From Escherichia coli (GTDB taxonomy: Bacteria > Pseudomonadota > Gammaproteobacteria > Enterobacterales > Enterobacteriaceae): DNA of 64,000 nucleotides. The position numbers were made by a program. This document shows positions 11,301 through 16,677 of this stretch, in pieces. The first letter of the stretch is position 1; each line of letters begins with the position of its first letter. Where the stretch lies: the NCBI RefSeq assembly GCF_003334405.1, contig NZ_QOWM01000005.1. The stretch is one strand, 5' to 3'.

Positions 11301-14300
11301 ATGGCATGAGCAGTTGATCTCTCATTTCGCGGAGATCTTCTTCCCGTTGCTGCCCGCGTTGATTAGCGGCGGTTTGATCCTCGGTTTTCGCAATGTGATC
11401 GGCGATTTGCCCATGAGCAACGGTCAAACGCTGGCGCAAATGTACCCTTCCCTGCAAACGATCTACGATTTTCTGTGGTTGATCGGTGAAGCGATCTTCT
11501 TCTACCTGCCGGTCGGGATTTGCTGGTCAGCGGTGAAAAAAATGGGCGGCACGCCGATCCTCGGTATCGTGCTTGGCGTGACACTGGTTTCTCCACAGCT
11601 GATGAACGCTTATCTGCTCGGGCAGCAGCTGCCGGAAGTGTGGGACTTTGGCATGTTCAGCATCGCCAAAGTAGGCTATCAGGCGCAGGTGATCCCGGCA
11701 CTGTTAGCCGGACTGGCGCTGGGCGTTATTGAAACTCGCCTTAAACGCATCGTGCCGGATTACCTCTATCTGGTGGTGGTACCCGTCTGTTCGCTGATCC
11801 TCGCGGTGTTCCTCGCCCATGCGCTGATTGGTCCGTTTGGTCGCATGATTGGCGATGGCGTTGCCTTTGCGGTACGTCACCTGATGACCGGCAGCTTTGC
11901 TCCGATTGGTGCGGCATTGTTTGGCTTCCTGTACGCGCCGCTGGTGATCACCGGCGTACACCAGACCACCCTTGCTATTGATTTGCAGATGATTCAAAGC
12001 ATGGGTGGCACGCCAGTGTGGCCGCTGATTGCGCTGTCGAATATCGCTCAGGGCTCCGCCGTGATAGGCATTATCATTTCCAGCCGCAAGCACAATGAAC
12101 GCGAGATCTCCGTGCCTGCCGCTATCTCCGCCTGGCTTGGGGTCACTGAGCCTGCAATGTACGGCATCAACCTGAAATATCGCTTCCCGATGCTGTGCGC
12201 GATGATTGGTTCTGGTCTGGCAGGATTGCTATGCGGCCTGAACGGCGTTATGGCGAATGGCATCGGCGTAGGCGGCCTGCCGGGAATTCTCTCGATTCAA
12301 CCGAGCTACTGGCAGGTATTTGCGCTGGCAATGGCTATCGCCATCATCATCCCGATTGTACTCACCTCGTTTATCTATCAGCGGAAATACCGCCTGGGCA
12401 CGCTGGACATTGTTTAATTTTCTTCGGGGCGCAATTGCGCCCCCTCGCATTTGCAGGAATAACGTAATGACTAATCTTCCCCACTGGTGGCAAAACGGCG
12501 TTATCTACCAGATTTATCCAAAGAGTTTTCAGGACACCACGGGTAGCGGCACCGGCGATTTACGTGGCGTTATCCAACGCCTGGACTATCTGCATAAACT
12601 GGGCGTTGATGCCATCTGGCTAACCCCCTTTTATGTCTCTCCCCAGGTCGATAACGGTTACGATGTAGCGAACTATACGGCGATTGATCCCACCTACGGC
12701 ACGCTGGACGATTTTGACGAACTGGTGACGCAGGCAAAATCGCGCGGGATTCGTATCATTCTCGATATGGTGTTTAACCATACCTCTACCCAACATGCCT
12801 GGTTTCGCGAGGCGCTGAACAAAGAAAGCCCTTACCGCCAGTTTTATATCTGGCGCGATGGCGAACCAGAAACGCCACCGAACAACTGGCGTTCAAAATT
12901 TGGCGGTAGTGCGTGGCGCTGGCATGCGGAAAGCGAACAGTACTATTTGCATCTCTTTGCACCAGAACAGGCGGATCTCAACTGGGAGAATCCAGCGGTA
13001 CGCGCAGAGCTGAAAAAAGTCTGTGAATTCTGGGCCGATCGTGGGGTCGACGGGTTGCGCCTGGATGTGGTGAATCTGATCTCCAAAGACCCGCGTTTCC
13101 CTGAAGACCTGGATGGCGACGGGCGTCGCTTCTACACCGACGGGCCACGAGCACACGAGTTTTTGCACGAGATGAACCGCGATGTGTTTACGCCACGCGG
13201 GTTAATGACCGTAGGTGAAATGTCCTCCACCAGCCTTGAGCATTGCCAGCGATACGCGGCACTGACAGGCAGTGAATTGTCGATGACCTTTAATTTTCAT
13301 CACCTGAAGGTCGATTATCCCGGTGGTGAAAAATGGACGCTGGCTAAACCTGACTTTGTGGCGTTGAAAACATTGTTCCGCCACTGGCAACAAGGAATGC
13401 ACAACGTGGCATGGAATGCCTTGTTCTGGTGTAACCACGATCAGCCGCGCATTGTTTCTCGCTTTGGTGATGAAGGTGAATACCGCGTGCCTGCGGCAAA
13501 AATGCTGGCGATGGTGCTGCATGGCATGCAGGGAACGCCGTATATCTACCAGGGCGAAGAGATTGGCATGACCAACCCGCATTTCACGCGCATTACTGAC
13601 TATCGCGACGTGGAGAGCCTCAATATGTTTGCCGAGCTGCGCAACGATGGGCGTGATGCCGACGAGTTATTGGCAATCCTCGCCAGTAAATCCCGTGACA
13701 ACAGTCGCACGCCCATGCAATGGAGCAACGGCGATAATGCCGGGTTTACGGCTGGCGAACCGTGGATTGGCCTGGGCGATAACTATCAACAAATCAACGT
13801 AGAAGCCGCGCTGGCCGATGATTCCTCGGTGTTTTACACCTACCAAAAGTTAATCGCACTGCGTAAGCAGGAAGCCATCCTGACATGGGGCAATTACCAG
13901 GATCTGCTGCCAAACAGCCCTGTATTGTGGTGCTATCGCCGTGAATGGAAGGGGCAAACCTTGCTGGTCATTGCCAACCTTAGCCGTGAGATCCAACCCT
14001 GGCAGCCAGGGCAAATGCGCGGCAACTGGCAGCTTGTGATGCATAACTACGAAGAAGCCTCACCACAACCCTGTGCCATGAATTTACGGCCTTTTGAGGC
14101 TGTCTGGTGGTTACAGAAGTAAATCTTCCCTAAGCCCCGGTAATGCCGGTCATTCCGGGGTTTTGTCTGTCAGCATGTTGTTTTTGTTGATTTTTCAACC
14201 AGCAAATTCATTAAAAAATTTACATAACGCTGTAGCGCCCGTCATCCGTACGCTCTGCTTTTTACTTTGAGCTACATCAAAAAAAGTTCAAACATCCTTG

Positions 14301-16677
14301 ATGCAAAGCACTATATATAGACTTTAAAATGCGTCCCAACCCAATATGTTGTATTAATCGACTATAATTGCTACTACAGCTCCCCACGAAAAAGGTGCGG
14401 CGTTGTGGATAAGCGGATGGCGATTGCGGAAAGCACCGGAAAACGAAACGAAAAAACCGGAAAACGCCTTTCCCAATTTCTGTGGATAACCTGTTCTTAA
14501 AAATATGGAGCGATCATGACACCGCATGTGATGAAACGAGACGGCTGCAAAGTGCCGTTTAAATCAGAGCGCATCAAAGAAGCGATTCTGCGTGCAGCTA
14601 AAGCAGCGGAAGTCGATGATGCCGATTATTGCGCCACTGTTGCCGCGGTTGTCAGCGAGCAGATGCAGGGCCGCAACCAGGTGGATATCAATGAGATCCA
14701 GACCGCAGTTGAAAACCAGCTGATGTCGGGTCCATACAAACAACTGGCTCGTGCTTACATCGAGTACCGTCACGATCGCGACATTGAACGTGAAAAACGC
14801 GGTCGCCTGAACCAGGAGATCCGTGGTCTGGTCGAGCAGACCAACGCCTCGTTACTCAACGAAAACGCCAACAAAGACAGCAAGGTGATTCCAACCCAGC
14901 GCGACCTGCTGGCCGGGATCGTGGCTAAACACTATGCACGTCAGCACCTGCTGCCGCGTGACGTGGTGCAGGCACATGAGCGTGGCGATATTCACTATCA
15001 CGATCTCGATTACTCACCGTTTTTCCCGATGTTCAACTGCATGTTGATCGACCTGAAAGGCATGCTGACCCAGGGCTTTAAAATGGGGAACGCCGAGATT
15101 GAACCGCCGAAGTCGATCTCAACGGCAACCGCGGTAACTGCGCAGATTATTGCTCAGGTTGCCAGCCATATTTATGGCGGCACCACCATTAACCGTATCG
15201 ATGAAGTGCTGGCACCGTTTGTCACCGCCAGCTACAACAAACATCGCAAGACCGCAGAAGAGTGGAGCATCCCGGACGCAGAAGGCTACGCTAACTCTCG
15301 TACCATTAAAGAGTGCTACGATGCCTTCCAGTCGCTGGAGTACGAAGTAAACACCCTGCATACCGCCAACGGTCAAACGCCGTTTGTAACTTTTGGTTTT
15401 GGTCTGGGCACCAGCTGGGAATCGCGCCTGATTCAGGAATCTATCCTGCGTAACCGTATCGCAGGTCTCGGTAAAAACCGTAAAACTGCGGTGTTCCCGA
15501 AACTGGTGTTTGCGATTCGCGATGGTCTGAACCATAAAAAAGGCGATCCGAACTACGACATCAAACAGCTGGCGCTGGAGTGCGCAAGCAAGCGCATGTA
15601 TCCGGATATCCTGAACTACGATCAGGTAGTGAAAGTCACCGGTTCGTTTAAAACCCCGATGGGCTGCCGCAGCTTCCTCGGCGTGTGGGAAAATGAAAAC
15701 GGCGAGCAGATCCACGATGGTCGTAACAACCTCGGCGTGATCAGCCTGAACCTGCCGCGTATTGCTCTGGAAGCAAAAGGCGATGAAGCCACCTTCTGGA
15801 AGCTGCTGGATGAACGTCTGGTGCTGGCACGTAAGGCGCTGATGACCCGTATCGCTCGTCTCGAAGGCGTGAAAGCGCGCGTGGCCCCGATCCTCTATAT
15901 GGAAGGTGCTTGTGGCGTGCGTCTCAATGCTGACGATGATGTTTCTGAAATCTTCAAAAACGGTCGTGCGTCTATTTCGCTGGGTTACATCGGCATCCAC
16001 GAAACCATTAACGCGCTGTTCGGCGGCGAGCATGTTTACGACAACGAGCAGCTTCGCGCGAAAGGTATCGCCATTGTTGAACGTCTGCGTCAGGCAGTGG
16101 ATCAGTGGAAAGAAGAAACGGGTTATGGTTTCAGTCTCTACAGCACGCCGAGTGAAAACCTGTGCGACCGCTTCTGCCGTCTCGATACTGCTGAGTTTGG
16201 CGTGGTGCCGGGCGTGACCGATAAAGGTTACTACACCAACAGTTTCCACCTCGATGTGGAGAAGAAGGTGAACCCGTACGACAAGATCGACTTTGAAGCG
16301 CCTTACCCGCCGCTGGCGAACGGTGGTTTCATTTGCTACGGCGAGTATCCAAACATTCAGCACAACCTGAAGGCGCTGGAAGATGTCTGGGATTACAGCT
16401 ATCAGCATGTACCGTATTACGGCACCAATACACCGATTGATGAGTGCTACGAGTGTGGCTTTACCGGTGAGTTCGAGTGCACCAGCAAAGGCTTCACTTG
16501 CCCGAAATGTGGTAACCATGACGCCTCCCGTGTGTCGGTAACTCGCCGCGTGTGCGGATATTTAGGTAGCCCGGATGCACGTCCATTTAACGCCGGTAAG
16601 CAGGAAGAAGTTAAGCGCCGCGTTAAACATTTGGGAAATGGGCAGATAGGTTAATCTTCACTCTACGTTAAGCAAAT

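What the first reader, a model, noticed from the sequence alone, without database searches (positions are those of the whole stretch)
14160..14515. nrdD upstream region: FNR-like site and a direct repeat of ccggaaaacg in the 5' leader
TTGAG-N4-ATCAA at 14267-14280 fits an FNR site, consistent with anaerobic induction of nrdDG. Closer to the start codon (about 14434-14465) the sequence accggaaaacgaaacgaaaaaaccggaaaacg contains a direct 10-nt repeat in an A-rich leader. This could be a regulatory protein site or a translation-control element; I do not recognise it as a named motif.
Basis: seen in the sequence. Interest (0 to 1): 0.3.

Follow-up and report, generated by a model that had tools for sequence, protein, structure and literature searches.

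The report
nrdD leader repeat between DnaA boxes
The FNR-like site is the already published FNR-2 activator site of the E. coli nrdDG promoter, and the 'ccggaaaacg' direct repeat is a real but Escherichia-only sequence quirk in a fast-evolving spacer between two conserved DnaA boxes, so it is most likely not a regulatory motif of its own.

Summary
Both observations are in the sequence as described. TTGAGCTACATCAA (14267-14280) is the published FNR site 2 (-64.5) of the E. coli nrdDG promoter. With FNR site 1 (14298-14311, -33.5) it puts the transcription start near 14338, giving a 178-nt leader. The repeat is ACCGGAAAACG at 14435-14445 and 14456-14466, 21 bp apart, at +98 and +119 of that leader.

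The repeat lies between two perfect DnaA boxes (TGTGGATAA, 14404-14412 and 14481-14489), and DnaA binding here is shown by published ChIP-seq.

Across 47 Enterobacteriaceae:
- The boxes are almost invariant and sit 77-78 bp apart in 42 of 47.
- The sequence between them is only 60-69% identical to E. coli, about the neutral rate.
- The repeat occurs only in E. coli and E. albertii.
- What persists is spacer length and the ability to fold into an imperfect hairpin (moderate covariation support). The CCGG of each repeat copy forms the apical stem of that hairpin.

The repeat is best read as a lineage-specific by-product. The functional units are the FNR, NrdR and DnaA sites, all already known. 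The fixed-length hairpin bracketed by DnaA boxes is an undescribed detail worth a modest follow-up.

The parts
14267..14280 (.). FNR site 2 (TTGAGCTACATCAA), centred at -64.5; essential for anaerobic activation
   Evidence: Sequence. Identical to the site in the published 54-mer nrdDG promoter oligonucleotide (PMC10425943). Half-sites are conserved in Escherichia, Salmonella and Citrobacter.
14298..14311 (.). FNR site 1 (TTGATGCAAAGCAC), centred at -33.5; weaker auxiliary site
   Evidence: Sequence and PMC10425943. It lies 31 bp from site 2, as published.
14308..14323 (.). NrdR box 1 (GCACTATATATAGACT), overlapping FNR site 1
   Evidence: Lies within the 57-bp NrdR-binding probe (window 14303-14359) of PMC12176259. 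The published 15-bp linker to box 2 fits.
14325..14330 (+). -10 hexamer TAAAAT; transcription start about 14338
   Evidence: Inferred from the published -33.5 and -64.5 positions of the two FNR sites, which both give +1 = 14338. Invariant.
14339..14354 (.). NrdR box 2 (ACCCAATATGTTGTAT)
   Evidence: PMC12176259 probe and 15-bp linker rule. Invariant.
14338..14515 (+). nrdD 5' leader, about 178 nt
   Evidence: Transcription start inferred as above. nrdD ATG at 14516.
14374..14408 (+). Predicted leader hairpin H1; its 3' arm is the 5' half of DnaA box 1
   Evidence: Minimum-free-energy folds. The two halves of a sequence pair better with each other than with halves from other species (p = 0.002, 16 thinned species). 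Inferred, not shown experimentally.
14404..14412 (+). DnaA box 1, perfect consensus (TGTGGATAA = complement of TTATCCACA), +67
   Evidence: the only two exact matches in 64 kb are in this leader. Present in 44 of 47 Enterobacteriaceae leaders as an exact 9-mer.
14422..14478 (+). Inter-box imperfect hairpin H2: GAUUG.GGAAAGC.CCGG / CCGG..G.CUUUCC CAAUU, with a 17-nt A-rich loop
   Evidence: Folds. Matched-versus-mismatched halves test p = 0.0026. Covariance-model realignment gives 67.9% paired against 42-52% for slid partners, and 16 of 17 pairs show double changes. The E. coli version itself is weak (z = -0.35).
14435..14445 (+). Direct repeat copy 1, ACCGGAAAACG (extended 14429-14445); CCGG 14436-14439 is the 5' arm of the apical stem
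14456..14466 (+). Direct repeat copy 2, ACCGGAAAACG (extended 14450-14466); CCGG 14457-14460 is the 3' arm of the apical stem
14481..14500 (+). Double DnaA box: consensus TGTGGATAA (14481-14489, +144), cc, then weak partner TGTTCTTAA (14492-14500)
   Evidence: Reverse complement of the nrdD 'double DnaA box' tTTAAGAACAggTTATCCACAg under a 62-fold DnaA ChIP-seq peak (PMC11317965). Conserved.
14506..14518 (+). Shine-Dalgarno (GGAG, 14507-14510) and nrdD start codon (14516-14518)

Best explanation
The interval is the known nrdDG control region. Two FNR sites activate a promoter that starts near 14338, two NrdR boxes repress it, and a 178-nt leader follows. The 'ccggaaaacg' repeat has no function of its own that is conserved. 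It is a variant found only in E. coli and E. albertii, in the apical and fastest-evolving part of a 68-nt spacer between two consensus DnaA boxes. Selection acts on three things: the boxes (bound by DnaA in vivo, and most likely repressing nrdDG by blocking elongating RNA polymerase), the box-to-box distance (77-79 bp), and the ability of the spacer transcript to form an imperfect hairpin. In E. coli the apical stem of that hairpin happens to be CCGG paired with CCGG, in an A-rich AAAACG-type low-complexity context. Because CCGG is self-complementary and the flanks are similar, the two arms read as a direct repeat. The repeat probably arose by local duplication or slippage with the overall length restored. 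Shown here or in the literature: positions, conservation pattern, length constraint, DnaA binding. Inferred: the roadblock mechanism, the RNA hairpin being functional, and the duplication origin.
For: The repeat is absent from 44 other Enterobacteriaceae leaders and present only in E. albertii. Inter-box identity to E. coli is 60-64% for Salmonella and Citrobacter, equal to nrdD third-codon identity of 62-64%. That is roughly neutral sequence drift. Box 1 to box 2 distance is nevertheless 77 or 78 bp in 42 of 47 species (range 75-79), whereas the better-conserved box 2 to ATG segment varies from 29 to 40 bp. Hairpin potential covaries: matched halves -18.3 against mismatched -16.3 kcal/mol, p = 0.0026, and the covariance-model alignment gives 67.9% paired against 42-52% for slid partners. 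The apical stems differ but still pair: CCGG/CCGG in E. coli, CCCCG/CGGGG in cryptic Escherichia, TGGC/GCCA, CUUUGG/CCAAGG and CAUUG/CAAUG in Citrobacter. Sister families keep the plan of DnaA boxes, hairpin, DnaA box, with clear compensatory changes (83% paired against 25-47% slid, 5 of 7 pairs compensatory). DnaA ChIP-seq shows a 62-fold peak at nrdD. NrdD and NrdG rise when DnaA-ATP or DnaA is lowered. DnaA roadblocks are a described mechanism. SNPs occur at repeat positions 14435 and 14466 and at the adjacent 14450 and 14467 within E. coli.
Against: The leader is at least 99% identical in 4904 of 5426 E. coli genomes, and E. albertii keeps the repeat at 93% inter-box identity although its nrdD third-codon identity is only 80%. 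Some lineage-specific constraint therefore cannot be excluded. An exact 11-mer is rare in shuffles (0.3-0.7%). The 21-bp period equals two helical turns and seven codons. The hairpin evidence in Enterobacteriaceae is only moderate: about 32% of cells are unpaired, RNAalifold on the MAFFT alignment finds nothing, and E. coli's own fold is no better than shuffles. No experiment on the repeat exists.
Confidence: 0.6

Rival explanations
1. The repeat tunes the DnaA complex in Escherichia. Its copies would act as very weak DnaA-ATP sites, or as phased A-tracts that bend the spacer, helping DnaA bound at box 1 and at the double box 2 to oligomerise or contact each other across 77 bp (7 x 11 bp).
For: ACCGGAAAA has the same orientation as the flanking TGTGGATAA and matches 5 of 9 positions, sharing the GGA.AA core (sequence). 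TGCGGAAAG at 14425 matches 6 of 9. Box 1, box 2 and the weak partner box start at offsets 0, 77 and 88, all multiples of 11. A-tracts at 14430-32, 14440-43, 14451-56 and 14461-64 recur about every 10-11 bp. The ChIP-seq peak coordinate maps between the boxes (my coordinate conversion). Spacing is tightly conserved.
Against: The CACA part of the box, regarded as critical for DnaA binding (my knowledge), is missing from the repeat. Published preferred DnaA sites are pairs 2-3 bp apart, and the repeat copies are not adjacent to a strong box. Their offsets from box 1 (31 and 52) are not multiples of 11. Neither the A-tracts nor the motif are conserved in other genera that keep the same spacing. 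Distances of 78 and 79 bp are also common.
Confidence: 0.14
2. The repeat is an RNA-level site in the 5' UTR. It could offer two GGA motifs in an A-rich context for CsrA, an A-rich Hfq distal-face site, or a duplicated sRNA pairing site that controls nrdD translation or mRNA stability.
For: Both copies contain GGA, 21 nt apart, next to or within the predicted loop. The box 1 to start-codon part of the leader (14404-14518) has seven GGA triplets (sequence). The region is transcribed.
Against: It is not conserved outside Escherichia, while the Shine-Dalgarno region is. It lies 40-80 nt upstream of the Shine-Dalgarno sequence. No Rfam family matches. nrdD and nrdG are absent from the held supplementary tables of the E. 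coli CsrA CLIP-seq study, although I did not check whether its cultures expressed nrdD, which needs anaerobiosis. No paper linking nrdD to an sRNA was found.
Confidence: 0.1
3. The repeat is the operator of an unidentified transcription factor that binds direct repeats two helical turns apart and acts on the DNA downstream of the promoter.
For: It is an exact 11-mer with 21-bp spacing, nearly fixed in E. coli, and rare in shuffles.
Against: I recognise no known E. coli operator consensus in it (my recall; NrdR and DnaA boxes were compared by eye with the sequence). The window holds only two one-mismatch copies elsewhere, as expected by chance. It is not conserved in relatives that share E. coli's regulators. 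SNPs hit its edges.
Confidence: 0.06
4. The repeat encodes a duplicated TGKR motif in a small upstream ORF (14417-14500, 27 aa from ATG; 31 aa from GTG at 14405) whose translation regulates nrdD.
For: The ORF exists, and the 21-nt period is exactly seven codons in frame. Its stop lies 15 nt before the nrdD ATG.
Against: All four E. coli versus E. albertii differences inside the ORF are non-synonymous (my translation). In Citrobacter the corresponding open frame is a different one relative to box 2 (my reading). There is no convincing Shine-Dalgarno sequence before 14417.
Confidence: 0.03

Closest known systems
E. coli nrdDG promoter with tandem FNR sites (Boston & Atlung 2003; Roca et al. 2008; PMC10425943)
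   Same: It is the same locus. The 54-bp published promoter oligonucleotide matches window 14263-14316 with one substitution (C to T at 14285), and both FNR sites fall at the published -64.5 and -33.5.
   Different: Nothing differs for the FNR part. The papers I could read do not discuss the leader downstream of the NrdR boxes.
DnaA-bound 'double DnaA box' upstream of nrdD (ChIP-seq, PMC11317965)
   Same: The published box pair is window 14481-14500, and DnaA binding is shown in vivo.
   Different: The paper lists only the double box. The second consensus box 77 bp upstream, the fixed spacing, the hairpin-capable spacer and the repeat are not described there.
DnaA control of nrdAB, and DnaA roadblocks in transcribed regions (asnC, guaB; refs 27-29 of PMC11317965)
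   Same: DnaA boxes next to a ribonucleotide-reductase operon link dNTP supply to initiator status. Boxes lie downstream of the transcription start, where bound DnaA can stop elongating polymerase.
   Different: In nrdAB the boxes lie upstream of the promoter, not in the leader (my knowledge). In nrdD two same-orientation boxes bracket a hairpin at +67 and +144. A roadblock at nrdD has not been demonstrated.
Arrays of low-affinity DnaA sites between strong boxes in oriC (11-bp register)
   Same: Strong boxes in the same orientation are separated by a multiple of 11 bp, with weak GGA-containing near-matches between them.
   Different: The intervening near-matches at nrdD are not in the 11-bp register, are not conserved, and their binding is untested. 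The resemblance is a lead from memory, not a test.
NrdR boxes (16-bp palindromes, 15-bp linker)
   Same: They are present in this same interval (14308-14323 and 14339-14354).
   Different: The direct repeat is not an NrdR box. It has no TATATA-type palindrome and a different spacing.

Membership tests
FNR (CRP/FNR-type) binding site | Inverted repeat TTGAT-N4-ATCAA | tested here: met
   14267-14280 matches 9 of 10 specified positions.
FNR (CRP/FNR-type) binding site | Activator position relative to the transcription start, and demonstrated FNR binding and dependence | not testable with these tools
   Taken from the literature: -64.5, gel shift, mutagenesis and SAXS (PMC10425943).
FNR (CRP/FNR-type) binding site | Conservation in orthologous promoters | tested here: met
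   TTG...(A/G)TCAA is kept in Escherichia, Salmonella and Citrobacter.
   ACCGGAAAACG has no such palindrome. The true boxes are at 14308-14323 and 14339-14354.
DnaA box, applied to the direct repeat | 9-mer close to TTATCCACA, especially the CACA end | tested here: not met
   There are 5 of 9 matches and the CACA end is absent (sequence).
DnaA box, applied to 14404-14412 and 14481-14489 | 9 of 9 match to the consensus; in vivo DnaA occupancy | tested here: met
   Exact matches, the only two in 64 kb. ChIP-seq peak from PMC11317965. Conserved in 44 of 47 species.
Described RNA family or riboswitch (Rfam 15) | Covariance-model match at or near the gathering score | tested here: not met
   The best hits have E >= 0.68 and lie far below gathering scores.
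Intrinsic terminator / attenuator in the leader | GC-rich hairpin followed by a T run on the + strand | tested here: not met
   There is no + strand terminator-like site in 14000-14600. The sister-family hairpins with TTT(T) tails also fall below the scan's criteria.
Conserved structured RNA element (inter-box hairpin) | Base pairs kept through compensatory changes across species | tested here: inconclusive
   Support is moderate in Enterobacteriaceae and clear in Yersiniaceae, Pectobacteriaceae and Hafniaceae. RNAalifold is negative on MAFFT alignments.
Regulatory upstream ORF / leader peptide | Conserved reading frame and peptide under purifying selection | tested here: not met
   An ORF exists, but all four E. 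albertii differences are non-synonymous and the frame is not kept in Citrobacter.
CsrA binding site | GGA motifs, ideally in hairpin loops, overlapping or near the Shine-Dalgarno sequence; CLIP evidence | tested here: inconclusive
   GGA is present in both copies, but they are distant from the Shine-Dalgarno sequence. nrdD is absent from the held CLIP-seq supplements, which may simply reflect lack of nrdD expression in those cultures (not checked).

The most novel reading that the evidence does not exclude
The nrdD leader of Enterobacterales may be a DnaA-sensing elongation checkpoint. Consensus DnaA boxes at a fixed distance bracket an RNA hairpin. There are two same-orientation boxes 77-79 bp apart in Enterobacteriaceae, and a double box plus an inverted box in a 63-66 nt unit in most Yersiniaceae, Pectobacteriaceae and Hafniaceae. 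DnaA bound there would stall RNA polymerase at a defined point relative to the nascent hairpin, so that anaerobic dNTP synthesis is throttled according to initiator status. In this reading the Escherichia-specific repeat (phased A-tracts, weak DnaA-like GGA cores) is a lineage-specific tuning of that device rather than neutral drift.
Probability: 0.2. Interest if true: 0.5.

Novelty: already known. Interest (0 to 1): 0.2.

Why it matters
As a finding it mostly re-discovers a mapped promoter. The FNR site is textbook for this operon, and the repeat fails the conservation test, so no new regulator needs to be invoked. The useful by-product is a sharper picture of the leader. Two of the 32 consensus DnaA boxes reported for the E. 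coli genome (PMC11317965) sit in it. They are held at a fixed distance across a whole bacterial family while the sequence between them drifts at about the neutral rate yet keeps hairpin potential. That gives a concrete, testable handle on how DnaA, whose regulatory mechanisms are described as poorly understood (PMC11317965), represses the anaerobic ribonucleotide reductase.

Tried and rejected
- Rfam scan at permissive E-values: only noise.
- Tandem Repeats Finder: nothing.
- Promoter and terminator scan: no + strand terminator in the leader. None at the sister-family hairpins either, so I dropped the label 'attenuator/terminator'.
- RNAalifold on MAFFT alignments: no consensus structure for 46 Enterobacteriaceae. 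For the sister families it returned only the invariant box-box pairs. In an 8-sequence Escherichia/Salmonella/Citrobacter set it proposed GAUUGC pairing with GCGAUC next to the start codon. Both sides are invariant apart from one-sided changes, so there is no covariation evidence and I did not adopt it.
- Single-sequence folding of the E. coli leader or spacer is not better than shuffles.
- The upstream-ORF idea was rejected on substitution pattern and frame.
- CsrA: nrdD is not in the held CLIP-seq supplements. Literature searches for nrdD with UTR, sRNA, Hfq or CsrA gave nothing relevant.
- The original promoter papers (Boston & Atlung 2003, PMC180968; Torrents 2007, PMC1951866) are not held. 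Transcription start and site positions are therefore taken second-hand from PMC10425943, and I could not check what Torrents 2007 said about predicted DnaA sites.
- FNR pattern statistics alone are uninformative.

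
Full report
**What the region is.** The window is E. coli. A 461-bp query spanning the finding hits all 5426 complete E. coli genomes between treC and nrdD. treC ends at 14122 and nrdD runs 14516-16654 on the + strand.

**The FNR site.** TTGAGCTACATCAA at 14267-14280 is as described. As a pattern it is not special in the window (5 one-mismatch matches against 2.6 expected). However, it is the published FNR site 2. The 54-mer nrdDG promoter oligonucleotide used for FNR SAXS (PMC10425943) equals window 14263-14316 with one substitution. That paper, citing Roca 2008, places site 2 at -64.5 and site 1 (TTGATGCAAAGCAC, 14298-14311) at -33.5. [quoted passage not shown]

Both positions give a transcription start at about 14338, behind a TAAAAT -10 hexamer at 14325-14330. 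The NrdR-binding probe of PMC12176259 is window 14303-14359. This places NrdR box 1 at 14308-14323 and box 2 at 14339-14354 with the published 15-bp linker. This half of the finding is therefore correct and already known.

**The repeat.** The exact repeat is ACCGGAAAACG at 14435-14445 and 14456-14466, period 21, extendable to 17 nt at 88% identity. It lies at +98 to +108 and +119 to +129 of a 178-nt leader.

An exact direct repeat of 11 nt or more is found in 0.7% of dinucleotide shuffles of the leader and 0.3% of the spacer. It is probably a real duplication-type event rather than chance. Still, the 64-kb window contains four isolated repeats of this kind, and Tandem Repeats Finder sees nothing.

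The same repeat scan shows TGTGGATAA at 14404-14412 and 14481-14489. These are the only two exact matches in 64 kb. TGTGGATAA is the complement of the DnaA box consensus TTATCCACA.

Published ChIP-seq found a 62-fold DnaA peak upstream of nrdD. It listed the double box tTTAAGAACAggTTATCCACAg, which is the reverse complement of window 14480-14501 (PMC11317965). Other published data point the same way:
- Strains with lowered DnaA-ATP (delta-DARS2) over-produce NrdD (PMC12371093).
- Strains with very low DnaA over-produce NrdD and NrdG 3.6- to 8-fold, even aerobically (bioRxiv 2026.05.06.723188).
- DnaA bound inside transcribed regions has been described as a roadblock.

The repeat therefore sits in the middle of a DnaA-controlled leader, between boxes at +67 and +144.

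**Comparative test.** One scan of species-representative genomes with NrdD returned 80 Enterobacterales loci. Results for Enterobacteriaceae:
- Both DnaA boxes are exact in 44 of 47 leaders.
- Box 1 to box 2 distance is 77 bp (25 species) or 78 bp (17), range 75-79.
- NrdR box 1 to DnaA box 1 is 95-96 bp in 43 of 47.
- The far better conserved box 2 to ATG segment varies from 29 to 40 bp, so indels do occur nearby.
- The 68-70 nt between the boxes is hypervariable. Identity to E. coli is 60-64% for Salmonella and Citrobacter, the same as nrdD third-codon identity of 62-64%.

The ccggaaaacg repeat is present only in E. coli and E. albertii (93% inter-box identity). Two genomes labelled E. coli have a different spacer (68-69% identity) whose loop resembles the Salmonella/Citrobacter version. 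For one of them nrdD was compared and is 93% identical in nucleotides, about as distant as E. albertii, so it is probably a cryptic Escherichia lineage.

Within E. coli the leader is at least 99% identical in 4904 of 5426 genomes. Four sampled variants carry SNPs at 14400, 14435 (two alleles), 14450, 14466 and 14467, that is, at the repeat's edges.

**What is conserved instead.** Nearly every spacer folds into one long imperfect hairpin whose 5' GGGAAG-type arm pairs with a 3' CTTCCC-type arm (mean z = -0.77). The evidence for this hairpin is as follows:
- Matched-halves test. Among 26 representatives thinned to less than 70% identity, the 5' and 3' halves of the same spacer pair better than halves from different species: -18.3 against -16.3 +/- 0.63 kcal/mol, p = 0.0026. 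The antisense strand gives p = 0.012.
- Covariance-model realignment. This gives 67.9% of cells paired, against 60.6% in shuffles and 42-52% when partners are slid. Sixteen of 17 pairs show a double change somewhere. Such an alignment leans towards its own structure.
- Plain MAFFT alignment. The outer stem is 65% paired against 55-58% slid, and RNAalifold finds nothing.

I rate the hairpin in Enterobacteriaceae as moderately supported. The first leader segment behaves likewise. A hairpin (14374-14408 in E. coli) uses the 5' half of box 1 as its 3' arm, with the same test giving p = 0.002.

In Yersiniaceae, Pectobacteriaceae and Hafniaceae the layout is different but analogous:
- NrdR box 2 comes first, followed directly by a double box TTATCCACA-N3-(T)CATCCACA.
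- A GC-rich hairpin with a short T run follows.
- An inverted TGTGGATAA closes a unit of 63-66 nt in most species.

That hairpin has clear compensatory changes: 83% paired against 25-47% slid, 5 of 7 pairs compensatory, and U-G wobbles on the sense strand. It does not meet the terminator scan's criteria.

**Where the repeat fits.** In the E. coli fold the hairpin is GAUUG.GGAAAGC.CCGG, then a 17-nt A-rich loop, then CCGG.....G.CUUUCC CAAUU. The CCGG of copy 1 (14436-14439) pairs with the CCGG of copy 2 (14457-14460).

Relatives have other apical stems at the same place: CCCCG/CGGGG, TGGC/GCCA, CUUUGG/CCAAGG and CAUUG/CAAUG. CCGG is self-complementary, and both arms are followed by AAAACG in an AAACG-rich low-complexity stretch. 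The two arms therefore read as a direct repeat.

The total spacer length (68 nt) equals that of relatives. Any duplication must therefore have been length-compensated, which fits the length constraint.

**Alternatives considered.**
- Weak DnaA-ATP sites or phased A-tracts. There is a 5 of 9 match in the right orientation, the boxes sit at offsets 0, 77 and 88 (multiples of 11), and A-tracts recur about every 10-11 bp. This remains possible as lineage-specific tuning. Against it, the CACA end is missing, the copies are not in the 11-bp register, and nothing of it is conserved.
- RNA-level binding by CsrA, Hfq or an sRNA. There is no positive evidence. I did not check whether the available CLIP data come from cultures that express nrdD.
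- Upstream ORF. A 27-aa ORF reads the repeat as TGKR twice. All four E. albertii differences are non-synonymous and the frame is not kept in Citrobacter.
- An unknown transcription factor. This cannot be excluded, but no evidence supports it.

**Verdict.** The FNR interpretation is supported and already known. The repeat is real but lineage-specific and most likely without a dedicated function. The functional architecture is FNR sites, NrdR boxes, and a DnaA-controlled leader with fixed-length hairpin-capable spacers.

The last point appears undescribed in the papers I could read and is a modest lead. Interest in the finding as given is 0.2.

Noticed in passing
window 14404-14412 and 14481-14500: Two perfect DnaA boxes in the same orientation, 77 bp apart, lie in the nrdD leader, and the second has a weak partner box 2 bp away. 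They are the only exact TGTGGATAA matches in the 64 kb. The spacing is conserved at 77-79 bp across Enterobacteriaceae although the intervening sequence drifts at about the neutral rate.
   Followed up: yes
L051-L080 (for example L064:1406-1470, L070:1416-1480): In Yersinia, Serratia, Pectobacterium, Dickeya, Brenneria, Hafnia and Edwardsiella the nrdD leader starts with NrdR box 2. This is followed directly by TTATCCACA-N3-(T)CATCCACA, a GC-rich hairpin with covarying stems and a short T run, and an inverted TGTGGATAA. The unit is 63-66 nt in most of them.
   Followed up: partly
L028, L043, L048, L050, L058: A few Enterobacteriaceae-like genomes (for example 'Escherichia sp. ESNIH1' L028 and MAG L043) keep the NrdR boxes but lack both DnaA boxes and the whole spacer. 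Their leader is much shorter, so they are natural deletion variants of the DnaA module.
   Followed up: no
L001:1388-1474 and L081:152-238: Two genomes labelled E. coli (SCPM-O-B-8794, N50) carry a spacer only 68-69% identical to the window's. For SCPM-O-B-8794 nrdD was compared: it is 93% identical in nucleotides, with third-codon identity of 80%. E. albertii, at the same coding divergence, keeps 93% spacer identity. This suggests allele replacement by recombination or uneven rates in this leader.
   Followed up: partly
window 14374-14408: A predicted hairpin pairs CUACAGC with GUUGUGG, so the RNA copy of DnaA box 1 is half buried in a stem. Hairpin potential of this segment covaries across species (p = 0.002). 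Its distance to the promoter is also fixed (95-96 bp from NrdR box 1 to DnaA box 1).
   Followed up: partly
window 14424-14429 and 14510-14515: GAUUGC in the 5' base of the inter-box hairpin is complementary to GCGAUC between the Shine-Dalgarno sequence and the start codon. This alternative pairing was proposed by RNAalifold in the Escherichia/Salmonella/Citrobacter clade. Both sides are nearly invariant, so there is no covariation evidence.
   Followed up: partly
window 14363-14368: A perfect TATAAT hexamer (gacTATAATtg) lies at +26 of the leader without an obvious -35. It is partly conserved (TACAAT in Salmonella and Citrobacter). It could be a secondary promoter or a pause element, or nothing.
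   Followed up: no
window 980-1155: An 18-bp tandem array (ATTTAACTCCTGCGGATT-like, about ten copies) lies inside yjgL. This part of yjgL is highly variable among E. coli genomes: most matches are 80-95% identical, and only 1672 genomes have a match covering at least 80% of the 701-bp query.
   Followed up: partly
window 14128-14165: CCCCGG...CCGGGG followed by TTTTG, directly after the treC stop codon, looks like the treC terminator. The simple scan did not flag it.
   Followed up: no
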